From the IMG/VR virus record IMGVR_UViG_3300025840_000011: a DNA stretch of 64,000 bases, one strand, 5' to 3'. The stretch is from a virus. The notes under the pieces are model-generated. The model searched no databases, was not told where the DNA came from, and saw only the letters and a list, made by a program, of their open reading frames with translations. The translations under genes were made by a program, and so were the position numbers. Shown here piece after piece: positions 9,013 to 37,733 of the stretch. How positions within the stretch are numbered: position 1 is the stretch's first letter; every line of letters begins with the position of its first letter.

Positions 9013-9042
9013 AAAAAGGGGACTTAACGTCCCCTCTTTTTT
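9013..9042. terminator. Bidirectional terminator between convergent genes
   Basis: A5-GGGGAC-ttaac-GTCCCC-tc-T6. Confidence 0.8.
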
Positions 9043-9061: not shown

Positions 9062-10300
9062 TTAACCAACTGTTAATTGTTGTTTCTGATCTTGTAACAG
9101 TTTCAAACCAACTTCTTTGAATTCGAAACCAGACTTTTCAAAGAAGAACTCTATCATGTTACGGTCTGCAATATACTTTGGCGAACCGATCCATTGATCA
9201 TGGTCAGAGATTTTTGGGTGATAGACGATACACACTGCCTTCGTGTATCCGTGTTCTTGGTGTGCCTCGAAAAAGTTAGACATGAAGGTCTGAAGCGAAC
9301 CACCAGAACCACTTGTGATAACTTCAACAAATGTCTTGCCGTCTTGGTAAGATGGAATGATCTCTTCGTAAAGTTTTTTCTTGTTGGCACCCTCTCTCCA
9401 CTTGATGTGCTTCTGGCCTAGCAAACTCAGTTCTTCGTTCTCGATTGCTTTCTTCGCCTTGTTGATAGCAGAGTTGATTTGACGTTTGGTGATATTGAAC
9501 TTCTCAAGTGCAAGGATCATTGCATCCGAATCAAGATCGATGTTGTGGTTATAGTAGAGACTCTGTGCAATCTTGGAGAAATCGTCAGATTGGTTTACCT
9601 TTGGTTGAATCTTACCTTCCTGAACATTCAACATCATGCCCAAATATTCGATCTCTGAATCTGTCAGACCTTCCCACATTGACAGGGGAACACGAACTAC
9701 CTCAAGAGTAACACCGTGTTTTGAGTCGTTGGTCGCACGGGTAGAGTGGTTACCACCAATACCAGCAGAACCATCAACACCAAAGTCTCGATCACCTTCT
9801 TCAAAATATCCTTCTAAAAGAACCGCCTGAAGTTTTAACTTCTCTGTGTTCCCGTGTTCCTCATCGATAGCGTTCTGGATATTCTGTTTGTGCGTCCAGT
9901 CATCTTCTGCACGTACTTGAATGAAGGTTGTCTTGACAACCTCAGACGCCATCTCCTGTTCACCCTTCATGTTCTTGATCTCTTCTGCGAGAGTCAGAAC
10001 ACGATCCATATCGAACTTCTTACTGGCGGGTGACCCGTTAGACTTATTAAAAAACATCACATTGGATTTTGCATTTGCTTCACTTAACACTCTATATTCC
10101 TCATTTTGCATTGCACCCCAACTACCAGTACGTAGTATCTCGTAGTCAAAGTCATTATAACTCTCTCTCAAGAGTTGGTTAAATTCTTCACATTTGGAAG
10201 AATGGTTATACCCATCTGAGATCAGACCCTTATGGATGCCAACATACATACGTCCGGTTGGACGGTGCGTATATTGGTATAGGTATGCTTCGTATTTCAT
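9062..10300 (-). CDS. GIY-YIG(Seg)-like N-terminal domain protein with a possible ParB/Srx-like central region
   Basis: YLYQYTHRPTGRMYVGIHKG...GYNHSS resembles the Seg-type GIY-YIG; GGNHS resembles a ParB-like motif (weak). Confidence 0.55.
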   Translation of the reverse strand: MKYEAYLYQYTHRPTGRMYVGIHKGLISDGYNHSSKCEEFNQLLRESYNDFDYEILRTGSWGAMQNEEYRVLSEANAKSNVMFFNKSNGSPASKKFDMDRVLTLAEEIKNMKGEQEMASEVVKTTFIQVRAEDDWTHKQNIQNAIDEEHGNTEKLKLQAVLLEGYFEEGDRDFGVDGSAGIGGNHSTRATNDSKHGVTLEVVRVPLSMWEGLTDSEIEYLGMMLNVQEGKIQPKVNQSDDFSKIAQSLYYNHNIDLDSDAMILALEKFNITKRQINSAINKAKKAIENEELSLLGQKHIKWREGANKKKLYEEIIPSYQDGKTFVEVITSGSGGSLQTFMSNFFEAHQEHGYTKAVCIVYHPKISDHDQWIGSPKYIADRNMIEFFFEKSGFEFKEVGLKLLQDQKQQLTVG

Positions 10301-10306
10301 GTTTTA

Positions 10307-10335
10307 ATAATAACAAACTGGACACTATTTGTCAA
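10307..10335 (-). promoter_or_regulatory. Sigma70-type promoter TTGACA-17-TATTAT (leaderless geometry)
   Basis: -10 box ends 7 nt before the ATG at 10300. Confidence 0.75.
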
Positions 10336-11308
10336 GGGCTTTATCCATCTTTTTTGCGAATTCCTCGAAATACTGGTCTTCACTCAGAAGAACCTTGGAG
10401 TAGTTGTTGCGGTACTCTTCCAACTTGTTATCAAAGAAAGTAGGGTCTCGTAACTCTAGGATCTTTTCCTCAAGTTCCTCAAACGTCTGGACTCTCTGCC
10501 AAGGGTCTATGTTATACGTGTTGTCTATGTCATAGTCCTGCCACACAAAGGGGACGATACCAATAGACAACGCCTCTGGATATCGTGACGTAGTGGCGTG
10601 TGGGTCTAACCAGTTGAAACATAGAGTAGACCGTGCGGGTTCTAGTAGAGGATAGAGTTTTCTCCAGTCCTTGATCCACTTGGATTGTCTCTGCACACCC
10701 GAAGGGAATCCGCCGATCATGACGGTAGACAACTGAGACCTATAGATTTTACGGATGGTCTTCTCTCTATCGTTTCCATGTTTCATCCTACCCCAATACC
10801 CAAAGTCCACAGACTTACCTTCGAACATCAAATCGGAGATGGGGTTCTTCAACCTCTGAATGAAGTGATACTTCATACCGTGAATATTTCCACTGAAGTC
10901 TATCTCATCTATGGTCACAAACTTCTTGATGTTTGGCAGGAAACTGCGGTACAGTTCTTCGGTGTCTCCCCTGTCACTACGGAACATCACTACAGTCTTG
11001 CCTTCGAAGTAGGGTGCAATCTTATCAATGTGAGACTGACTCTTCGCCAAGTCTTTGGGGTTCATCTGTAACTCACCGTGATACCGAAACTCACTGTCAC
11101 TTGGTATGACAATAACATCTGCGGACTCAATGGTTTCGGGTGTACGTTTAGGGCGTGTCCCATCAAAGGAACAATTGTACGTATCGTAGTTGTGTTCGGG
11201 GTGCGCCTTCATCCACTTGACGTAGTTCTCGAAGAAACTGTCCAGTACGGTTTCGAGTGGTCCTTCATACTTAACAAAGGATCTCAGTCTTGCGATGGTA
11301 ATGTTCAT
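10325..11308 (-). CDS. T4 beta-glucosyltransferase-like GT-B glycosyltransferase
   Basis: KSVDFGYWGRMKHGNDREK and TTSRYPEALSIGIVPFVWQDYD...VQTFEELEEKILELR align by eye with T4 BGT KTLDVIYGGSFRSGQRESK and ITLRVWETMASDAVMLIDEEFD...VNNRAELIDRVNELK; similar length. Confidence 0.7.
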   Translation of the reverse strand: MNITIARLRSFVKYEGPLETVLDSFFENYVKWMKAHPEHNYDTYNCSFDGTRPKRTPETIESADVIVIPSDSEFRYHGELQMNPKDLAKSQSHIDKIAPYFEGKTVVMFRSDRGDTEELYRSFLPNIKKFVTIDEIDFSGNIHGMKYHFIQRLKNPISDLMFEGKSVDFGYWGRMKHGNDREKTIRKIYRSQLSTVMIGGFPSGVQRQSKWIKDWRKLYPLLEPARSTLCFNWLDPHATTSRYPEALSIGIVPFVWQDYDIDNTYNIDPWQRVQTFEELEEKILELRDPTFFDNKLEEYRNNYSKVLLSEDQYFEEFAKKMDKALDK

Positions 11309-12417
11309 CGTATAATATCAATCTCGTTCATGGTGTCCTGATTCCAGACCTCTAGTTCTGTACGGACACGATTTTCATTTTTCAACTTGTCGTAACGTTT
11401 ACTGGCGAGTTTCTTCCACCACGCGATCACGTTATCTAGTTCAAACCTATCAAAGTTTTCTGCCTTGATCAGGTTATCGGTCCTACCCAATAGAACGTCC
11501 CGCACATTAGAGTAACCATACTCACCCATATAAAAACGTTTCTGTGTAGTCACATCACCCGCAGTCGATATCTTATCAACAAATTTGTTGTACGCCTCCG
11601 TGTCATGATGTTTCAGTGATGCCTTGACGATACTCACCATCTTGGTTTGCATCTTTAGTTTACGGGATGACGCACCCTTGTGCACTAACTCCTCACCACC
11701 GTTCTTCTCAGTAAACCAATCCCTCATCTCTGGATAGAAGTCATCCCCTAGAGTCAACAGGAACTTAGATTGTGTGTCGCCCTTGTACCGTAGATAAGGA
11801 CGCATACCATCATACATCGATGCACCCTTGAGGTTACCATACAACGAGGTGGTTTCAAAGAGACAGAACTCTGTATCATATTTGTCATTCAACATTCTGC
11901 GACTATCATGGGAACAACAGATGGCGGCAAGTAACTTACCACCAAGATAGTTAAACCCAAAGGGTTGGGCGGGTACGATGTTGAACCCCATGATTGCACG
12001 TTTGTTGAATATGTCAAGATCCGGTACACCCCCAAGATACTCGTTCCGTGGTTTGGAATTGATTAGAGGAGATCCAAACCGAATGAACCCACATATGGTG
12101 TTGGTGGTTGTTTCTCTGACTACCATCTTTAATGTCTTGCCAGGCGACTCATCCGGAGAGAACGAGGCAGTCTTTTCAAGTAGGGTGTCAAACAACTCGT
12201 GTGGGATTTGTTGGATACGGAAGTCCATATCTTGGGGGTGCAAATCAAACTGTTGGAACAGGTCATCCTCAACGGACATGCCTGGCAACGGTGCGGGGAT
12301 GTTCCTCACACGTTCGATCTTACGTGCACGGAAATAGTCATCGATACGTTCGAAGTCATCGAAGTAATCCATGAGTTTCCACGCTGCGTGAAATGCGTCT
12401 TTCTTTGATAAAATCAT
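11305..12417 (-). CDS. DUF4338 / DruA-like protein
   Basis: GFIRFGSP, PFGFNYLGGKLLA, ETTSLYG, SMYDG..Y.G.T motifs typical of the DUF4338 family. Confidence 0.65.
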   Translation of the reverse strand: MILSKKDAFHAAWKLMDYFDDFERIDDYFRARKIERVRNIPAPLPGMSVEDDLFQQFDLHPQDMDFRIQQIPHELFDTLLEKTASFSPDESPGKTLKMVVRETTTNTICGFIRFGSPLINSKPRNEYLGGVPDLDIFNKRAIMGFNIVPAQPFGFNYLGGKLLAAICCSHDSRRMLNDKYDTEFCLFETTSLYGNLKGASMYDGMRPYLRYKGDTQSKFLLTLGDDFYPEMRDWFTEKNGGEELVHKGASSRKLKMQTKMVSIVKASLKHHDTEAYNKFVDKISTAGDVTTQKRFYMGEYGYSNVRDVLLGRTDNLIKAENFDRFELDNVIAWWKKLASKRYDKLKNENRVRTELEVWNQDTMNEIDIIR

Positions 12418-12439
12418 ATTGAACCTCTAATCATGTACC

Positions 12440-12468
12440 ATTATATAGCATCCAGACAAGTTTGTCAA
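12440..12468 (-). promoter_or_regulatory. Perfect sigma70 promoter TTGACA-17-TATAAT for the inverted island
   Basis: Reverse-strand consensus upstream of 12417. Confidence 0.85.
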
Positions 12469-15754: not shown

Positions 15755-16219
15755 TTGTCAAGAAGAATTATCAGAAATTTTATAAAAGAGGAAGACCTAC
15801 CCGAAGTACTCGACTTCGCAAACTCTCTCCCTTACTATAGAGATCGTGATCTGCCTGGCGAAGCGGGTGAGGCGGTGCGTCAAGGTGTTTTTAAGTTTAC
15901 GGGAAAACGGACAGAAAGCGTCCATACAATATGTGACATAGGAACGGACATATATAACGCAACGGGATTAAGACCAACACGTCTCTACTTCCACTGGCAT
16001 GATGCGGATCCTGAGTGGACACCGAAAATCCACGCAGACCTGTCAATGAGTGGAGTGATCTACCTTATAGGTGGTGAAGGATGTGGTACGGAAATCGATG
16101 GTGTGGTTGAAGAGTTCGAAGTTGGAAAGTTGGTTATGTACGATGGCAGAACCCCACATAGACCTCAAGGGTTTCCCGTCGATAGGTTGGTAATTACATT
16201 TTTTATAGGTGAAGAATAA
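15755..16219 (+). CDS. 2OG-Fe(II) oxygenase-like protein
   Basis: IHAD...SGVIYL...GT...H...R.VITFF (HxD...H...R). Confidence 0.7.
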   Translation: MSRRIIRNFIKEEDLPEVLDFANSLPYYRDRDLPGEAGEAVRQGVFKFTGKRTESVHTICDIGTDIYNATGLRPTRLYFHWHDADPEWTPKIHADLSMSGVIYLIGGEGCGTEIDGVVEEFEVGKLVMYDGRTPHRPQGFPVDRLVITFFIGEE

Positions 16220-16662
16220 TGACAGTTGGATTTACTGCATCGACATTTGATCTCTTACATGCGGGTCACGTCTCCATGTTGAGAGAGGCGAAGGAACAGT
16301 GTGACTACTTGATCTGTGGTCTACAGGTTGATCCCTCTTTGGATAGACCTGAGAAGAACAAACCCGTTCAGACCTTGGTCGAGAGGTACACGCAACTGGC
16401 GGGTATCAAGTACGTCGATGAGATCATTCCCTACCAGACCGAAGAAGACCTTGAAGACATTCTTAAGATGGTCAACATCGATCTCCGCATCATAGGATCG
16501 GAGTACAAAGACAAGACCTTCACAGGAAGAGCCACGTGCGCCGCGCGAGGGATTGAAATCTATTTTAACAAGAGGGACCATAGGTTCTCCACTAGTGACT
16601 TAAGAAGAAGAGTCAGTGCGAGCGAATATGGTCTTGACAACCCACCCCTTGATGTAATATAA
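16219..16662 (+). CDS. Glycerol-3-phosphate cytidylyltransferase-like (TagD family)
   Basis: STFDLLHAGH (HxGH), R.H.FSTS. Confidence 0.85.
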   Translation: MTVGFTASTFDLLHAGHVSMLREAKEQCDYLICGLQVDPSLDRPEKNKPVQTLVERYTQLAGIKYVDEIIPYQTEEDLEDILKMVNIDLRIIGSEYKDKTFTGRATCAARGIEIYFNKRDHRFSTSDLRRRVSASEYGLDNPPLDVI

Positions 16663-32253: not shown

Positions 32254-34737
32254 ATGAATCAACCAATGTTTTACACTTCCGTGGTCCGGTACGGCAGTAA
32301 CATCCTGTTCCGTGGGTTTGCGGAGAACGGAAAAAAACTTCAAACCAAAGTCCCCTACAAACCTACCCTGTACGTGCAGTCCGACAAGAGACAATCGGGG
32401 TGGAAGGCGATTGACGGTACTTCTGTCGAACCTCTCAAGTTTGACTCCATGAAGGAGGCGACTGAGTTCCAGAAACGTTACGAGGACGTACCCAACTTCA
32501 AGGTCTACGGGATGAACAACTTCGTGTCTCAGTTCATTGCAGACATGTTCCCTACCCCTATCGAATTCAACCGTGACTGGATCGATGTGTGCACCATCGA
32601 CATTGAGGTCGCATCTGACGAAGGGTTCCCCGAACCCGACAAGGCAGATCATCCGGTCATCGCCATCACTATCAAGAACCCCAACGGTCCCTATCGCGTC
32701 TGGGGTCTGTATGACTACAATGCGGGTGAGGATGTGATCTACGAGAAGTGCGACTCCGAAGCGCAACTCCTCATGAAGTTCGTCGATCACTGGTTCCGTA
32801 ACCAACCCGACATCGTGACCGGATGGAACACACGATTCTTCGACATTCCCTATCTGGTCAACCGTATTGGTAAAACCATTGGCGCGGACATGGTGAAGAA
32901 ACTTTCACCGTGGGGTCTGGTACGTGAAGGTAACGTAACCATCAACGGAAAGAAACAACAGGAGTACACCCTCGAAGGTATCCAACACCTCGACTATCTA
33001 GAAATCTTCAAGAAGTTCACCTACAACACTCTGGGTCAACAGGAGTCCTATCGACTGGACCACATCGCCCACGTAGTACTGGGTGAGGGTAAACTATCCT
33101 ACGAAGAACACGGTACACTGTACTCCCTGTACAAGACTGACTTCCAGAAGTTCATTGACTACAACATCAAGGACGTGGAACTGGTCGAGAAACTCGACGA
33201 GAAACTTGACCTGATCTCTCTGGTCCTGACCATGGCGTATCGCGGTGGTGTGAACTACAACGACACGATGGGGACCACAAACATCTGGGACACCATCATC
33301 TACCGCATCTTGAACGAACAGAAAGTTGCAGTACCACCCAAGGTCGAGAAGGTCAAGACATCGTATCCAGGCGGATACGTCAAGGAACCTCAAGTCGGTT
33401 CCCATGACTGGGTGACATCGTTCGACTTGAACTCACTGTACCCGAACATCATTGTCCAGTACAACATGTCACCTGAGACTGTCCTTGATGGTTTCTACAA
33501 TGACGTGTCCGTGGACGCATTCCTTTCCGGCGACATCGATGTGTCCGGTAGTCCTTTCTCTGTCGCACCTACCGGAATTAAGTTTACTCACGAACGTGAG
33601 GGTGTGATCCCCAACATCATTAAGAAATACTATGACGAACGCCGTGTGGTCAAGAAGGAGATGTTGCGACTACAACAAGAATACCAGAACAATCCCACAC
33701 GGGAACTGGACAACAAGATCACGTCACTGAACAACCAACAGATGGCGATCAAGATTCTGATGAACTCACTCTACGGTGCGTTGGGTAATCGGTGGTTCCG
33801 ATACTTTGACCAACGTGTTGCGGAGTCGATCACCCTTGCGGGACAACTCGCAATCAAGTGGGCGGAACGTGCGGTCAACGATGAGATGCAAAAACTTCTC
33901 AAGACGGAAGAAGACTACGTTGTTGCAATTGACACCGACTCTGTTTACATTCGGATGGGTGATCTTGTTGACAAGTTCAACCCGAAGGATCCTGTAAAGT
34001 TCCTTGACAAGATTTGTTCCGAACACTTCGAGAAAGTATTGTCTAAATCCTATGCGGAGATGGCGAGAGTCACCAGTGCAATGGTCAACCGTATGGAGAT
34101 GGGACGCGAGGTAATCGCAGACCGTGGTATCTGGATGGCGAAGAAACGTTACATCCTCAACGTGCACAACAACGAGGGTGTGCAGTACGCACAACCCAAA
34201 CTCAAGTTGATGGGTATCGAAGCGGTCAAGTCATCTACGCCTCAGGTTGTGCGTGACAAGTTTCAAGAAATCTTTCGGGTCATCATAGAAGGTACTGAGT
34301 CAGACACACAGTCCTTTATTGGGAACTTTAAGACCCAATTTGGGACTCTTCCTCCCGAAGACGTGTCGTTCCCTCGTGGGGTTTCGGAGATCACCAAGTG
34401 GCAGGATCGACAGACCGTCTACAAGAAGGGTTGTCCTATCCACGTGCGTGGTGCACTGGTCTACAACGATACGGTTAAGAAGAACGCACTTGACAAGAGG
34501 TACGTCTACGTCCAGAACGGAGAGAAGATCAAGTTCGTCTACCTGAAGATGCCCAACCGTCTGGGTGAGAACGTGGTGTCGTTCCCCTTGAACCTACCCA
34601 AGGAGTTCGGGTTGCATGACTTCATCGACTATGACATGATGTTCCGGAAGACGTTCCTAGATCCTCTCGAACCAATCCTTGATGCAGTCGGGTGGGCGGC
34701 AGAACCACGTGCAACCCTAGAAGACTTTTTCTCTTGA
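32254..34737 (+). CDS. gp43: Family B DNA polymerase
   Basis: DIE (ExoI), [16 protein letters not shown]...NS.YG, DTDS, KKRY. Confidence 0.98.
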
Positions 34738-34763
34738 CAGAAACCGCGAAGATTTGTTATGAT
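34734..34763 (+). promoter_or_regulatory. Sigma70 promoter TTGACA-18-(TGn)TATGAT (leaderless geometry)
   Basis: -10 ends 7 nt before ATG 34770. Confidence 0.7.
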
Positions 34764-34769
34764 GTGTCT

Positions 34770-35708
34770 ATGTTTGAACTAACACTATTCCGCAATCAGT
34801 TTGATAACAAGACTCACAATCGGGTCCAGTTCGATTCGTGGGATAAATTTGTTAAGTGGTTGTATCGCATATCACAAGTGAAAGGAGAGAAGGGTGGAAA
34901 TAATTCTAGTCCTCTTATTAGTCCTGCTGTTTTCGAAATGGGTTCGAAACGTTCTAATAAATCTACTAGTCATTGGGGTGGTTGGTGCGCTGTTGATGTT
35001 GATGATCACAATTTTGGTGTGGATCTTTCAACCCTTGAGCGAAGACTGCAAGATCAATTCGGAGGATACGACTATGTTGTGTACAATACTGCGTCAAGTA
35101 GATCAGACAACCTCAAGTTTCGGATCGTCTTCCGACTCGACGAACCCGTCGAAAACGAAAGGATCAAATCCTTCTGGTATGCTCTGAATACAGAACTAGG
35201 TGAGATCGGAGATCCTCAGACAAAAGACCTTGCACGTATGTACTATGTGCCGGCGCAGTATCCTAACGCAACATCTTTCTTCTTTGCGAACTCTGGTTCT
35301 GCACTCAACGTATCTGAGTTGATTGCAAAACATCCTTACCACGAGAAGACAGGTAATTCTTTCCTAGATAGATTACCAGAAAGTTTACAGAAGGCAGTGA
35401 TAGAACATCGTAAGTCCCAACTGGACAACACTAACATAGTATGGACATCGTATCACGATTGTCCGTTCTGGCCTAAGTCGTTAGGTGCGGAATATATACA
35501 GATCAGTGGTACAGGTTGGTATCACAAAATGTATCAGATCATGGTCGCTGTTGCGGGCCGCGCAACAGAAAGTAACTATCCCATAACTGCACAACAGATT
35601 GCGGATATGTGTAAACAGTTCGACGCTGAAACTGGTAACTGGTACGAGAACAGACCTCTCATTGTAGAGGCCGACAGAGCATTGGAGTACATTTACCGAA
35701 ATGGATAA
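34770..35708 (+). CDS. Primase-polymerase (AEP-like) protein with PriCT-like C-terminus
   Basis: SPA.F, AVDVD (DxD), T.SS....KFRIVF.L..PV, D..TKD.ARMYYVP. Confidence 0.7.
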   Translation: MFELTLFRNQFDNKTHNRVQFDSWDKFVKWLYRISQVKGEKGGNNSSPLISPAVFEMGSKRSNKSTSHWGGWCAVDVDDHNFGVDLSTLERRLQDQFGGYDYVVYNTASSRSDNLKFRIVFRLDEPVENERIKSFWYALNTELGEIGDPQTKDLARMYYVPAQYPNATSFFFANSGSALNVSELIAKHPYHEKTGNSFLDRLPESLQKAVIEHRKSQLDNTNIVWTSYHDCPFWPKSLGAEYIQISGTGWYHKMYQIMVAVAGRATESNYPITAQQIADMCKQFDAETGNWYENRPLIVEADRALEYIYRNG

Positions 35709-36699
35709 TAAAAGAATATTAGTCACCGGAGCTGCAGGGTTCATAGGATCTCAGTTGTGTCTAAGACTCACAGGAATGGGTCATGATGTTATTGGATGCG
35801 ATAACTGGAACAGTCATCTCTATGATCCTTGGTTGAAAGTTAAAAGACATACTAACTTTGGTATGCAGATCATGGACATGGACATACGTGATGAACTGAT
35901 GCTGGGTAACCTTTTAAACGATCAACGTTTGATACCGGATGTTGTGGGCGAACCCTTTGACTATGTTATACATCTCGCCGCACACGCAGGGGTGCGTGAC
36001 TCGTTTGGGAAAGAATCAGAGTATCACTCAAACAACATTGATGGTACACAGAACCTAATTAATCTGTTCGAAAACTACAGTCCCCAAACAAAATTCATCT
36101 ATGCATCTACCAGTTCTGTATATGGAGGAACTCCTATTTCAGAGAATGGGTGGAAGGAAGACTTTGTTCAGGCGCACCAACTTAACGCCTATGCATATAC
36201 CAAATACATCAACGAGTGTCAGTTCGGAATTTCCAAGTTGTTTAGTACAGGACTACGTTTCTTTACCGTGTACGGACCTTGGGGTAGACCAGACATGGCA
36301 CTCTTCCAATTTACGAAATCAACCCTTGACGGAACGCCAATAAAGGTGTATAATTATGGGGATATGAAGCGGGACTTCACCTACATCGATGATATCCTTG
36401 ACGGGATCTGCATCGTTTTGGCGAACGTGGAATCTGGAGTCATTCCCAATAATGAGATATTTAATATTGGTAGAGGCGAACAGGTTCAACTGATGGACTT
36501 CATCTCAGAGATTGAGAAGAACGTTGGTAAGGAAGTTACGAAGGAGATGGTTGCGAAACATCCCGCCGATACAAAAGAGACGTGGAGTAACACAGACAAA
36601 CTTCAAAAACTAGGATATACACCGAAGGTCAGTATTGCAGAAGGTGTTGCAAAATTCTATGAGTGGTACAAAAATTTTTATGACGTAGAGGAGACATAA
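35701..36699 (+). CDS. NAD-dependent epimerase (UDP-glucuronate 4-epimerase-like)
   Basis: VTGAAGFIG, HLAA.AGVR.S, YxxxK, LRFFTVYGPWGRPDMA, RDFTYIDD. Confidence 0.92.
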   Translation: MDNKRILVTGAAGFIGSQLCLRLTGMGHDVIGCDNWNSHLYDPWLKVKRHTNFGMQIMDMDIRDELMLGNLLNDQRLIPDVVGEPFDYVIHLAAHAGVRDSFGKESEYHSNNIDGTQNLINLFENYSPQTKFIYASTSSVYGGTPISENGWKEDFVQAHQLNAYAYTKYINECQFGISKLFSTGLRFFTVYGPWGRPDMALFQFTKSTLDGTPIKVYNYGDMKRDFTYIDDILDGICIVLANVESGVIPNNEIFNIGRGEQVQLMDFISEIEKNVGKEVTKEMVAKHPADTKETWSNTDKLQKLGYTPKVSIAEGVAKFYEWYKNFYDVEET

Positions 36700-36701
36700 T
36701 A

Positions 36702-37733
36702 ATGGCAGATAATTTTGATGACTTTGTTCCGAAGACTTCGGACGGTCCATCTCAGGCAGACAAACAGAAACCTATTAGTCCGGATAACCCTTTCAAGTTG
36801 GGTATTGTCGGTCATGGGTTTGTAGGTAAGGCAGTAGAGTATGCATTCCTACATCCACTAGTGGACTTGCAGATTGCAGATCCAAAGTATGGTCCAGAGG
36901 CATCCATCGATGCGATGGTTGAGTTCGAACCACACTGTGTGTTTGTGTGTGCACCCACACCCATGAACCCCGACAGTGGATTTGTTGATGCATCTATCGT
37001 AGAGGATGCGGTACTCAAACTGATCGAACACACCGAGTCTCTTGTTGTTGTCAAATCAACAATCACTCCGGACGTTATTGATCGACTCTACAACTCTATG
37101 TTTGAGGACGGTATTGATCGTTTCGTGTACAACCCTGAGTTCCTTACGGAGAAGTCGGCAGAGGAACAGTTTGTAAATGCAGAGTTCCACGTACTTGGTG
37201 GTAGTGAACGTGCAACTGCCGAACTGGTAGAAATCTATGACGTGTTCAGTCTGTGTAAGTCTAACGAGTACTTCCGCATGGCGGCCGCAGAGGCATCGTT
37301 CGTGAAGTATGCAATCAACACTTACCTTGCAACTAAGGTTACCTTCTTTAACCAACTGTATGACCTGATCAATGCGTGGGGTTGTTCTTACAACATCGTT
37401 ACACGTGCGGTTGGCCGAGATCCTCGTGTTGGTGTTGGACACACCCGTGTGCCGGGTTATGACCGCAAACGTGGGTTTGGTGGTGCATGTTTACCCAAGG
37501 ATGCAACCGCATTCTTAAAGTTCTCTGAGGCAGAGGACCAAGAGGGTAACAAGATTAGTTTCGATTTAATCGAAAAAGTCCTTGACATAAACAGCCGATA
37601 TCGTGCATACTATGAGCTAGATGAACGAGAGAAAGCGAACAATATTACTTTTGGAGATGTGAATAATGAGCGTGATGGACAAACTGAAGAAGAACTCGAA
37701 GATCAAGACAACGGAGGTACTGTCGGAGAGTAA
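36702..37733 (+). CDS. UDP-glucose/GDP-mannose dehydrogenase family protein (short form)
   Basis: GHGFVG, VKST, NPEFL, K...N..LA.K..F.N, GFGGACLPKD; appears to lack the C-terminal UDP-binding domain. Confidence 0.88.
   Translation: MADNFDDFVPKTSDGPSQADKQKPISPDNPFKLGIVGHGFVGKAVEYAFLHPLVDLQIADPKYGPEASIDAMVEFEPHCVFVCAPTPMNPDSGFVDASIVEDAVLKLIEHTESLVVVKSTITPDVIDRLYNSMFEDGIDRFVYNPEFLTEKSAEEQFVNAEFHVLGGSERATAELVEIYDVFSLCKSNEYFRMAAAEASFVKYAINTYLATKVTFFNQLYDLINAWGCSYNIVTRAVGRDPRVGVGHTRVPGYDRKRGFGGACLPKDATAFLKFSEAEDQEGNKISFDLIEKVLDINSRYRAYYELDEREKANNITFGDVNNERDGQTEEELEDQDNGGTVGE

What the first reader, a model, noticed from the sequence alone, without database searches (positions are those of the whole stretch)
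9062..12468. Inverted early island: BGT-like glycosyltransferase + DUF4338/DruA-like protein + GIY-YIG-like protein, a candidate new DNA modification module
Seen: the only multi-gene minus-strand block in the window, inserted between gp23 and gp3, with perfect sigma70 promoters. The DUF4338-like gene overlaps the glycosyltransferase by 4 nt. The GT aligns by eye with T4 beta-glucosyltransferase in its UDP-sugar-binding half. Known: T4 BGT glucosylates 5hmC, and DUF4338 is the DruA family of Druantia systems. No dCMP hydroxymethylase or C5-methyltransferase appears in this window, while thyX and dCMP deaminase indicate normal dTTP synthesis. Inference: post-replicative base glycosylation, possibly further decorated by the DUF4338 protein and possibly using UDP-uronic acids made by the epimerase/dehydrogenase pair next to gp43. 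The nuclease could degrade unmodified DNA.
Basis: partly seen in the sequence, partly recalled or inferred. Interest (0 to 1): 0.75.

Follow-up and report, generated by a model that had tools for sequence, protein, structure and literature searches.

The report
Marine phage DruA/BGT-like DNA-modification island
An uncultured marine T4-like phage has an early-expressed pair of coupled genes, a DruA-family acyltransferase with a Mom-like fold and a close structural relative of the T4 DNA beta-glucosyltransferase, sitting next to a Seg-like nuclease gene; this is most likely a DNA hypermodification module that works without the usual hydroxymethyl-pyrimidine step, but no chemistry has been shown.

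Summary
Window 9062-12417 carries three minus-strand genes in an otherwise plus-strand window. A perfect sigma70 promoter drives the first two, which overlap by 4 nt (ATGA).

- **GNAT (370 aa).** It belongs to the DruA/DUF4338 family. Phage Mu Mom is the nominal top structural hit but ties with other GNATs, and there is no sequence similarity to Mom.
- **Third protein (412 aa).** It has a Seg-type GIY-YIG N-terminus. A ParB-like middle domain was not verified.

In relatives the block lies after DNA polymerase gp43, in the order gp43, DruA, GT, GIY-YIG, unknown, epimerase, UDP-glucose dehydrogenase, uvsX. This mirrors T4 43, 42, beta-gt, segA, uvsX. In 43 of 44 relatives a confirmed or probable glycosyltransferase follows the DruA gene. 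No dCMP hydroxymethylase homologue was found in the window or in five relatives' records.

Best reading (about 0.5): post-replicative DNA hypermodification with an unknown acceptor. Main rival: glycan or host-surface remodelling. The same scan had already noted this stretch in an overlapping window.

The parts
12440..12468 (-). Perfect sigma70-type early promoter (TTGACA-17-TATAAT). A GAGG ribosome-binding site follows, then the start codon of the DruA-like gene at 12417.
11305..12417 (-). P0003, 370 aa: a DruA/DUF4338-family GNAT acyltransferase. The GNAT core spans about residues 60-310. A helical insert at 227-290 carries an invariant basic motif (SS[RK]KLKxQxKM). The motif-A loop (QPFGxNxLGGKLL) is invariant.
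10325..11308 (-). P0002, 327 aa: a GT-B glycosyltransferase whose closest relatives are the T4 DNA beta- and alpha-glucosyltransferases. Its start codon overlaps the stop codon of the DruA-like gene by 4 nt (ATGA).
10307..10335 (-). Near-consensus promoter (TTGACA-17-TATTAT with a TG extension) overlapping the GT stop codon. The -10 element ends 6 nt before the P0001 ATG and there is no Shine-Dalgarno sequence, so a transcript from here would be leaderless.
9062..10300 (-). P0001, 412 aa. The N-terminal ~95 residues form a Seg-type GIY-YIG nuclease domain (invariant Y8, Y19, G21, H23, E68, N85, N88). The middle region has invariant QVR and GNH[ST] motifs. The C-terminal ~200 residues have no assigned family.
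   Evidence: phrog_314 homing endonuclease 2e-4. SegE_GIY-YIG hits for 4 of 15 family members, best 3e-4. Alignment A3. Motif resemblance to T4 SegA.
9017..9035 (.). GC-rich hairpin with T-runs on both strands, a likely bidirectional terminator. It closes the convergent 124-aa ORF on the plus strand and the island on the minus strand.
34692..37733 (+). Genes left at the ancestral site after gp43: a conserved unknown protein (about 324 aa), an NAD-dependent sugar epimerase/dehydratase (35701-36699) and a UDP-glucose/GDP-mannose dehydrogenase-family protein (36702-37733). In the closest relatives they directly follow the three island genes.
16219..16662 (+). Cytidylyltransferase-like gene, 53% identical to the gene that lies between the DruA-like and GT genes in many relatives.

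Best explanation
The block is an early-transcribed module for post-replicative DNA hypermodification, relocated from its usual place in the replication gene cluster.

Shown. A consensus sigma70 promoter drives a translationally coupled pair: a DruA-family GNAT acyltransferase with a Mom-like fold, followed by a GT-B glycosyltransferase of the T4 BGT/AGT lineage.

Inferred. The GNAT transfers an activated acyl or aminoacyl group, from acyl-CoA or from charged tRNA as Mom does, onto a base in duplex phage DNA. The BGT-like enzyme flips out a base and transfers a sugar from a nucleotide-sugar. The donor may be one made by the phage's own dehydrogenase, epimerase and cytidylyltransferase. The sugar may be added to the group installed by the GNAT, because no hydroxymethyl-pyrimidine pathway is present. 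The likely outcome is protection of phage DNA from nucleases, or discrimination of phage DNA from host DNA.

The adjacent Seg-type GIY-YIG protein is either a mobile endonuclease that travels with the module, as segA travels with beta-gt in T4, or its nuclease arm.
For: 1. The GT belongs to the BGT lineage.
- Only BGT is found in the PDB by the family profile (E 4e-4); hhalign gives E 5.6e-5.
- The counterparts of the BGT UDP contacts R269/E272 are invariant or nearly invariant (E245 in all 42, R242 in 41 of 42), R181 (aligned to the Arg of the BGT GQRE stretch, which I recall as R195) is invariant, and an acidic residue follows strand 4 in 42 of 42 sequences.

2. The GNAT belongs to the DruA family, and its fold resembles Mom.
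- It is a DruA-family member.
- Mom is the top structural hit in a search of the PDB that does not depend on Foldseek, with the longest alignment among the top GNAT hits (167 residues). The tRNA-dependent enzymes FemA and FemX are also hit.
- Mom, and ~550-700-aa 'endonuclease-like' phage proteins that may be the Mom-nuclease fusions described in PMC7824862, appear among viral structural matches.
- Like Mom, it has a helical insert in the GNAT core, and that insert carries an invariant basic motif (PMC13219725).

3. Genomic context.
- In 54 of 84 related loci the DruA gene directly follows gp43. In cyanophages it sits inside the clamp-loader operon.
- The order in relatives, gp43-DruA-GT-GIY-...-uvsX, parallels T4 43-42-beta-gt-segA-uvsX.
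- In 43 of 44 loci with enough sequence, a confirmed or probable glycosyltransferase lies within 5 kb downstream: BGT-like in 25, TAGT in 13, GT1 in 7, a probable GT-B in 18. GmrSD_N+HNH nucleases occur in 10.
- In 13 of 14 adjacent DruA/GT pairs the genes overlap by 4 nt.

4. Early promoter.

5. The GT and DruA genes share the extreme AGC/GCT depletion of gp43 (observed/expected 0.08-0.09), so they are long-resident genes rather than recent cargo.
Against: - No modified base has been demonstrated for any phage carrying these genes.
- The acceptor that BGT needs, 5-hmC, has no visible source. PF00303 is absent from five relatives' records, four of them near-complete, with a working positive control, and T4 gp42 finds nothing in the window.
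- This phage's copies are acidic: pI 6.0 for the GT and 6.7 for the GNAT, against 9.1 for BGT and 10.0 for Mom. The family medians are basic, at 8.1 and 8.6.
- The phage carries a broad glycan toolkit. The published view of pelagimyophage glycosyltransferases is modification of the host O-chain, with the argument that SAR11 hosts rarely have restriction systems (PMC7029224).
- In HTVC008M the two genes lie 14 kb apart.
- Cyanophages have the GNAT without the BGT-like gene.
Confidence: 0.5

Rival explanations
1. The genes serve glycan or host-surface remodelling. They would be part of the phage's carbohydrate toolkit. The GNAT N-acylates an amino sugar, as the GNATs PseH and WecD do. The GT-B enzyme transfers a sugar to a lipid, polysaccharide or protein acceptor, using products of the epimerase, dehydrogenase and cytidylyltransferase. 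The effect would be to alter the host envelope (superinfection exclusion) or to decorate virion proteins.
For: - The island is contiguous with epimerase and UDP-glucose dehydrogenase genes in the closest relatives.
- A cytidylyltransferase gene sits between the GNAT and GT genes in 13 of 44 relatives.
- The window also has kdsA/kdsB and other glycan genes (first-stage note e1-5667950).
- PMC7029224 interprets pelagimyophage glycosyltransferases and UDP-glucose dehydrogenase as LPS O-chain modifiers.
- The window's GT and GNAT are acidic.
Against: - The GT's nearest relatives by both sequence and fold are the two T4 DNA glucosyltransferases, with a margin of 4 Z units over LPS, teichoic-acid and protein GT-B enzymes.
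- The GNAT matches the defence-linked DruA family, not sugar N-acetyltransferase families.
- Both genes are anchored in the replication module, directly after gp43 or inside the clamp-loader operon, not in the tail-fibre/glycan hypervariable region.
- TAGT-type glycosyltransferases and GmrSD-like modification-dependent nucleases share the island.
Confidence: 0.27
2. The three genes are unrelated neighbours in a hypervariable slot. The GNAT acetylates a protein, either a host or replisome factor or a counter-defence target such as a Druantia-type system. The GT acts independently. The GIY-YIG gene is a selfish homing endonuclease whose activity moved the segment.
For: - The gp43-uvsX region is highly variable in gene content.
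- The GNAT occurs without the BGT-like gene in cyanophages and in many relatives.
- The GT family occurs without a DruA gene on short contigs of other phages.
- The GIY-YIG gene is sporadic (14 of 44 loci), diverges to 21-29% identity, and is less depleted in AGC/GCT, at 0.48.
- Phage GNATs that acetylate host RNA polymerase are known (PMC7824862).
Against: - The 4-nt overlap is conserved in 13 of 14 adjacent DruA/GT pairs.
- Almost every locus, 43 of 44, has some confirmed or probable glycosyltransferase just downstream of the GNAT gene.
- The pair moved together to the gp3/gp23 site in several lineages (L007, L008, L078, L079 and the window).
Confidence: 0.18

Closest known systems
T4 DNA beta-glucosyltransferase (beta-gt; CAZy GT63) with its neighbours gene 42 and segA
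   Same: - BGT is the only PDB hit of the family profile.
- The UDP-binding Arg/Glu pair is conserved, as is the YxG...R motif and an acidic residue after strand 4.
- The genomic slot is the same, between DNA polymerase gp43 and uvsX, with a Seg-type GIY-YIG gene immediately downstream.
   Different: - Sequence identity is only 15-17%, and the Pfam model for BGT does not reach E 0.1.
- No dCMP hydroxymethylase is present. A DruA-family GNAT occupies the upstream position that gene 42 holds in T4.
- This copy is acidic.
- Its donor sugar and acceptor are unknown.
Phage Mu Mom (tRNA-Gly-dependent GNAT that makes N6-carbamoylmethyl-adenine; PMC13219725)
   Different: - No sequence similarity was detected (hhalign probability 0.1%).
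- The structural score ties with ordinary GNATs.
- P0003 is 130 residues longer, with extra N- and C-terminal helices.
- It is expressed early from a replication-module position, not late as Mom is.
- The Mom catalytic residues could not be mapped with these tools.
DruA (DUF4338, PF14236) of type I Druantia defence systems
   Same: Family-level sequence match over the GNAT core: 37 of 37 relatives hit, best 4e-12, and PADLOC DruA gives 6e-4. DUF4338 has been called a GNAT domain (PMC10853773).
   Different: The phage gene has no DruB-DruE partners and lies in a phage replication module. The match covers only about 125 residues, and this protein scores just below the Pfam cut-off. The function of DruA is itself unknown.
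T4 Seg-family GIY-YIG homing endonucleases (SegA, SegE)
   Same: The N-terminal motif pattern is shared (YxY...YxGxH...DGY..S, with conserved Glu and Asn). The gene is free-standing and sits right after the GT gene, as segA sits after beta-gt.
   Different: P0001 is about twice as long and acidic (pI 5.5 against 9.9 for SegA). It has a conserved middle region (QVR and GNH[ST] motifs) and a C-terminal region with no match. No known DNA-binding module was detected.

Membership tests
T4 beta-glucosyltransferase lineage (GT63) | Two-Rossmann-domain GT-B fold, closest to BGT rather than to other GT-B families | tested here: met
   [not shown]
T4 beta-glucosyltransferase lineage (GT63) | Detectable sequence homology to BGT | tested here: inconclusive
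   The family profile finds BGT as the only significant PDB hit (E 4e-4, C-terminal 86 residues). hhalign gives E 5.6e-5 but probability 66% over 160 columns. No Pfam BGT-model hit at E up to 1 for any of the 42 members; 8 members weakly hit Glyco_trans_1_2.
T4 beta-glucosyltransferase lineage (GT63) | UDP-binding residues (BGT R191/R195, R269, E272) and the catalytic acid (D100) | tested here: met
   R242 and E245 align to BGT R269 and E272 and are conserved in 41 and 42 of 42 sequences. R181 aligns to the Arg in the BGT GQRE stretch and is invariant. An acidic residue (D or E at position 112) follows strand 4 in 42 of 42 sequences; its equivalence to D100 is inferred from position only. The residue roles in BGT come from my own knowledge of the BGT structures.
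T4 beta-glucosyltransferase lineage (GT63) | A 5-hydroxymethylcytosine acceptor supplied by a phage dCMP hydroxymethylase | tested here: not met
   T4 gp42 tblastn finds nothing in the window at E up to 1. PF00303 is absent from 5 relatives' records, four of them near-complete, with the control positive in 10 genomes. The Tet_JBP search also found nothing, but its control was silent, so that result is uninformative. The rest of this phage's own genome is not held.
T4 beta-glucosyltransferase lineage (GT63) | Sugar transfer to DNA | not testable with these tools
   Needs a biochemical assay or nucleoside analysis.
DruA / DUF4338 (PF14236) | Match to the family model | tested here: met
   P0003 scores 26.1 bits against a cut-off of 27, E 5.7e-6. 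All 37 aligned relatives match, best 4.2e-12. PADLOC DruA gives 6e-4. Database relatives carry a precomputed PF14236 annotation.
DruA / DUF4338 (PF14236) | Druantia type I operon context (DruB-DruE, including the DruE helicase) | tested here: not met
   The neighbours are gp43, glycosyltransferases, uvsX, or gp3 and gp23. No Druantia partner appears in any of the 84 loci.
Mom-type DNA-modifying GNAT | GNAT fold with an extra helical insert | tested here: met
   [not shown]
Mom-type DNA-modifying GNAT | Sequence homology to Mom and its catalytic residues (R111, S124, D149, R151) | tested here: not met
   hhalign of alignment A2 against Mu Mom gives probability 0.1%. A residue-level structural alignment is not available from these tools, so the catalytic residues could not be mapped.
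Mom-type DNA-modifying GNAT | Aminoacyl-tRNA donor and adenine N6 in duplex DNA as acceptor | not testable with these tools
   Needs an in vitro assay.
Seg-type GIY-YIG homing endonuclease | GIY-YIG catalytic motifs | tested here: met
   Invariant Y8, Y19, G21, H23, E68, N85 and N88 across 15 homologues with pairwise identity down to 21%. SegE_GIY-YIG hits 4 of 15 members, best 3e-4, below the cut-off. phrog_314 gives 2e-4.
Seg-type GIY-YIG homing endonuclease | Sporadic, free-standing gene with a C-terminal DNA-binding module | tested here: inconclusive
   The distribution is sporadic (14 of 44 loci). No NUMOD, HTH or other DNA-binding module was detected. The family is acidic.
ParB/Srx-like (GmrSD_N/DUF262-type) domain in P0001 | Detectable similarity to ParB/DUF262 models | tested here: inconclusive
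   No Pfam or PDB profile hit. hhalign against the GmrSD_N+HNH proteins found in the same island of relatives gives probability 3.5%. Only the QVR and GNH[ST] motifs are suggestive.

The most novel reading that the evidence does not exclude
The DruA-family GNAT takes the place of T4's dCMP hydroxymethylase as the maker of the glycosyl acceptor. It would aminoacylate or acylate a base in duplex DNA, in the manner of Mom, possibly using charged tRNA. That would leave a hydroxyl or a primary amide, and the BGT-like enzyme would then glycosylate it. The result would be a two-step, fully post-replicative acyl-glycosyl DNA hypermodification, possibly on a purine, that needs no hydroxymethyl pyrimidine. 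By extension, DruA of Druantia would be a DNA-modifying enzyme.
Probability: 0.15. Interest if true: 0.9.

Novelty: new variant of a known kind. Interest (0 to 1): 0.66.

Why it matters
- **BGT relatives.** As far as I know, BGT-type DNA glucosyltransferases have been described essentially only in T-even phages, where they depend on 5-hmC. Here a clear BGT relative is widespread in abundant marine myophages (809 protein clusters) that lack the hydroxymethylase family.
- **A new partner.** The BGT relative is tightly coupled to a GNAT from a family of unknown function (6296 clusters), which also gives its name to a component of the Druantia defence system.
- **If DNA is the target.** This would define a new route to glycosylated DNA, give a first functional handle on DruA/DUF4338, and matter for sequencing, cloning and restriction of marine phage DNA.
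- **Testable now.** Cultured phages carry the genes: HTVC008M has both, and S-SM2 and S-SSM7 have the GNAT alone. I found no paper describing this pairing in the searchable library.

Tried and rejected
- **Near-identical DNA.** A megablast search against phage records found nothing.
- **Single-sequence PDB searches.** All three proteins gave only noise.
- **Profile comparison with Mom.** The DruA-like family against Mu Mom gave no signal. Its profile against the PDB gave no hits.
- **Complex prediction.** The GNAT with the GT scored 0.00 and the tool returned no verdict. I do not count this as evidence either way.
- **ParB-like domain in P0001.** Pfam, the PDB profile search and hhalign against the island's GmrSD-like proteins gave nothing significant.
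- **The conserved unknown protein after gp43 (orf338).** No Pfam, PADLOC or PDB-profile match.
- **Probable GT-B family c6.** Nothing by PDB profile. It is not related to the BGT-like family by hhalign. Its GT assignment rests on sub-threshold Glycos_transf_1 and Glyco_trans_1_2 hits in 6 and 2 of 11 members.
- **Repeats at the island borders.** A search for repeats that could explain the relocation found only short chance matches.
- **TET/JBP in relatives.** The search found nothing, but its positive control was silent.
- **Degenerate-pattern scan with the GT alignment.** It could not be run because no stretch is conserved enough.
- **Whole genome.** None is held for this window.
- **Phage tRNAs as a hint to a Mom-like donor.** The window has only tRNA-Arg and tRNA-Thr, which is not informative.


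Full report
**Observation**

The window comes from a marine T4-like myophage. Almost all genes run on the plus strand. They include gp23, a gp3-like gene, uvsY, gp43, uvsX and a gp41-type helicase.

Three ORFs lie on the minus strand between gp23 (plus a 124-aa ORF) and the gp3-like gene:
- P0001, 9062-10300, 412 aa
- P0002, 10325-11308, 327 aa
- P0003, 11305-12417, 370 aa

P0003 and P0002 overlap by ATGA. A perfect TTGACA-17-TATAAT promoter at 12468-12440, followed by a GAGG ribosome-binding site, precedes P0003. An 11-of-12 promoter at 10335-10307 precedes P0001 so closely that any transcript from it would be leaderless. Perfect sites of this kind occur 9 times in the window against 0.06 expected, which fits early promoters of this phage group. 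A GC-rich hairpin at 9017-9035 has T-runs on both strands and closes the convergent units.

**The glycosyltransferase**

P0002 alone hits no Pfam family and nothing in the PDB. I aligned 42 diverse homologues of 24-89% identity taken from an exhaustive representative search. The evidence from that alignment is as follows.
- The profile finds T4 beta-glucosyltransferase as the only significant PDB sequence (E 4e-4).
- hhalign aligns 160 columns of the C-terminal domain (E 5.6e-5, probability 66%).
- The AlphaFold model is confident (pLDDT 93).
- Foldseek ranks BGT and then T4 alpha-glucosyltransferase first.
- The residues aligned to the BGT UDP contacts are invariant or nearly so: R242 and E245 to R269 and E272, and the YWG...R181 stretch to the YGG...GQRE stretch. 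An acidic residue follows strand 4 in all 42 sequences, where BGT has its catalytic Asp100.

P0002 is a divergent member of the lineage of T4 DNA glucosyltransferases, with 15-17% identity.

**The GNAT**

P0003 scores just under the Pfam DruA cut-off. All 37 aligned relatives match that model (best 4e-12), PADLOC's DruA model also matches, and the whole length matches an uncharacterised PHROG. The family is very well conserved, with 63% mean column identity between pelagimyophage-type and cyanophage members. Invariant motifs include GSPxINSKPRN, QPFGxNxLGGKLL, FETTSLYG and SS[RK]KLKxQxKM.

The model (pLDDT 88) has a GNAT core. The QPFG...GG loop sits between strand 4 and helix 3, the position of the acyl-donor pyrophosphate loop. 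An 80-residue helical insert carries the basic motif.
- Foldseek finds ordinary GNATs and malonyl-CoA decarboxylase.
- Among predicted viral structures, the best matches are uncharacterised giant-virus proteins. After them come several Mom-family proteins (including one named Mom) and ~550-700-aa 'endonuclease-like' phage proteins, which may be the Mom-nuclease fusions described in PMC7824862.
- Profile comparison with Mom gives nothing.

Mom was recently shown to transfer glycine from Gly-tRNA to adenine N6 in duplex DNA, and to need a helical insert in its GNAT core (PMC13219725). DUF4338 has been called a GNAT domain (PMC10853773). I found no study of DruA's own function.

**The third protein**

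Fifteen homologues, down to 21% identity, keep a Seg-type GIY-YIG pattern: Y8, Y19-x-G21-x-H23, E68, N85 and N88. They also keep two mid-protein motifs, QVR and GNH[ST]. Support from family models is below threshold but consistent: phrog_314 at 2e-4, and SegE_GIY-YIG in 4 of 15 members. A first-stage note on the same genome proposed a ParB/Srx-like middle domain. The family is acidic, which is unusual for a homing endonuclease.

**Context in related phages**

The DruA-like gene is found in 31 phage records, namely Synechococcus T4-like phages and Pelagibacter phage HTVC008M, at 45-53% identity. It is also found in thousands of marine metagenome clusters. I fetched 80 IMG/VR loci plus four metagenome loci and clustered their ORFs.

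- **Position.** In 54 of 84 loci the gene directly follows DNA polymerase gp43. In cyanophages it lies between clamp-loader genes gp44 and gp62.
- **Closest relatives.** In loci L010-L017 (gp43 72% identical, DruA-like 83-85%) the order on one strand is gp43, one to three small ORFs, DruA-like, BGT-like, GIY-YIG protein, a conserved unknown, epimerase, UDP-glucose dehydrogenase, uvsX.
- **The window.** The window keeps the unknown, the epimerase and the dehydrogenase after gp43 (34692-37733). The first three genes sit instead, inverted, between gp3 and gp23. Several other lineages share that placement (L007, L008, L009, L055, L064, L075, L078, L079). The island is therefore a relocated part of a gp43-uvsX module, not a foreign insertion.
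- **Composition.** The GT and GNAT genes share the extreme AGC/GCT depletion of gp43 (observed/expected 0.08-0.09), which agrees with long residence. The GIY-YIG gene does so only partly (0.48, following note e1-5667947).
- **Parallel with T4.** The T4 order is 43, imm, 42 (dCMP hydroxymethylase), beta-gt, segA (a GIY-YIG endonuclease), uvsX. The BGT-like gene thus keeps the T4 position, a Seg-like gene follows it in both phages, and the GNAT holds the place of gene 42.

**What travels with the GNAT**

Among the 44 loci with at least 4 kb downstream, 43 have a confirmed or probable glycosyltransferase within 5 kb on the same strand.

| Family within 5 kb downstream | Loci (of 44) |
|---|---|
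| BGT-like glycosyltransferase | 25 |
| Probable GT-B (sub-threshold hits only) | 18 |
| TAGT, TET-associated glycosyltransferase (PF20691, E 1e-14) | 13 |
| GT1 | 7 |
| Cytidylyltransferase | 13 |
| GmrSD_N + HNH nuclease | 10 |
| GIY-YIG protein | 14 |

When the BGT-like gene is adjacent to the GNAT gene, the two overlap by 4 nt in 13 of 14 cases. The window's own cytidylyltransferase homologue (53% identity) lies at 16219-16662. The thymidylate-synthase/hydroxymethylase family is absent from five relatives' records, four of them near-complete, with a working control, and T4 gp42 finds nothing in the window. A TET/JBP search was uninformative.

**Interpretation**

Several lines point to DNA as the target:
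- the two enzyme lineages involved;
- their anchoring in the replication module;
- early expression;
- conserved translational coupling;
- the T4 synteny;
- the company of TAGT-type glycosyltransferases and GmrSD-like nucleases.

I put this reading at about 0.5. The steps that are shown are the folds, the family relations, the conserved donor-binding residues, the gene order and the promoter. Everything about substrates and order of action is inferred.

The main rival (about 0.27) is that these genes belong to the phage's extensive glycan toolkit and act on sugars, lipids or proteins. That is the published reading of pelagimyophage glycosyltransferases (PMC7029224). The adjacency to sugar-nucleotide genes and the acidic pI of this phage's copies fit it.

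A third reading (about 0.18) treats the three genes as independent neighbours. It is supported by three facts: HTVC008M has the two genes 14 kb apart, cyanophages lack the BGT-like gene, and distant GT relatives sit in other contexts.

**Novelty**

I found no description of this pairing or of BGT-like enzymes in marine myophages in the searchable literature. One cyanophage record annotates its homologue as 'methylcarbamoylase mom'. I class the finding as a new variant of a known kind, phage DNA hypermodification modules, because it lacks the defining hydroxymethyl-pyrimidine step. The most novel reading not excluded is a GNAT-then-glycosyltransferase pathway on DNA (probability about 0.15).

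The same stretch had already been noted by first-stage readers in an overlapping window of this genome (e1-5667939, e1-5667954).

Noticed in passing
L003:9107-10531, L043:5359-6819 and 10 other related loci: Relatives carry a 474-497-aa GmrSD_N (DUF262) + HNH protein next to the DruA-like gene. It also hits PADLOC NsnA (1e-14). It never co-occurs with the GIY-YIG protein in the loci examined, so the two may be alternative nuclease components of the island.
   Followed up: partly
L061:6285-7064, L018:13397-14101 and 15 other related loci: A 234-285-aa TAGT-family (TET-associated glycosyltransferase, PF20691, E 1e-14) gene lies downstream of the DruA/BGT-like/GIY-YIG genes in 17 loci. No TET/JBP gene was detected in the one large (84% complete) record checked, but the control for that search was silent.
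   Followed up: partly
window 16219-16662 (+): This cytidylyltransferase-like gene is 53% identical to the gene that sits between the DruA-like and GT genes in many relatives. The module's components seem to be scattered in this genome.
   Followed up: partly
window 9062-12417 and 32254-34737: AGC+GCT observed/expected is 0.09 for the GT gene, 0.08 for the DruA-like gene and 0.08 for gp43. It is 0.48 for the GIY-YIG gene, 0.79 for gp23 and about 0.8 over 56-64 kb. The two enzyme genes share the strongest form of the trinucleotide purge already noted for this genome.
   Followed up: partly
window 10300-10335 (-): The near-consensus promoter in front of P0001 ends 6 nt before its ATG, and there is no Shine-Dalgarno sequence. 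This suggests a leaderless mRNA, or translation only from the upstream polycistronic message.
   Followed up: no
BFVD matches to model m2a6c4bb9d0e6: The best viral structural matches to the DruA-like model are uncharacterised proteins of giant viruses: Faunusvirus at 1.5e-16, and Yasminevirus and Dasosvirus, where the match lies inside ~1200-aa proteins. The fold therefore reaches beyond phages and bacteria.
   Followed up: no
L300:523-6197, L299:743-2466, L301:3226-6948: Distant members of the BGT-like family (27-43% identity) sit on short phage-like contigs next to other enzymes. These are an asparagine-synthase-type amidotransferase, a 2-hydroxyacid dehydrogenase and a radical SAM enzyme (L300), a PLP-dependent enzyme (L299), and a NUMOD3 endonuclease plus an N6/N4 DNA methyltransferase (L301). 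These gene sets are reminiscent of base-hypermodification clusters.
   Followed up: no
window 34692-35708 (+): A conserved unknown protein (about 324 aa; 2742 database clusters) lies between the island genes and the epimerase in relatives. It has many invariant aromatic and acidic residues and matches no family or solved structure.
   Followed up: partly
L087:9325-9395 (Synechococcus phage S-SSM7): A phage tRNA-Gly gene lies about 3 kb downstream of the DruA-like gene in S-SSM7. This is possibly a coincidence, but it is worth noting because Mom uses Gly-tRNA.
   Followed up: no
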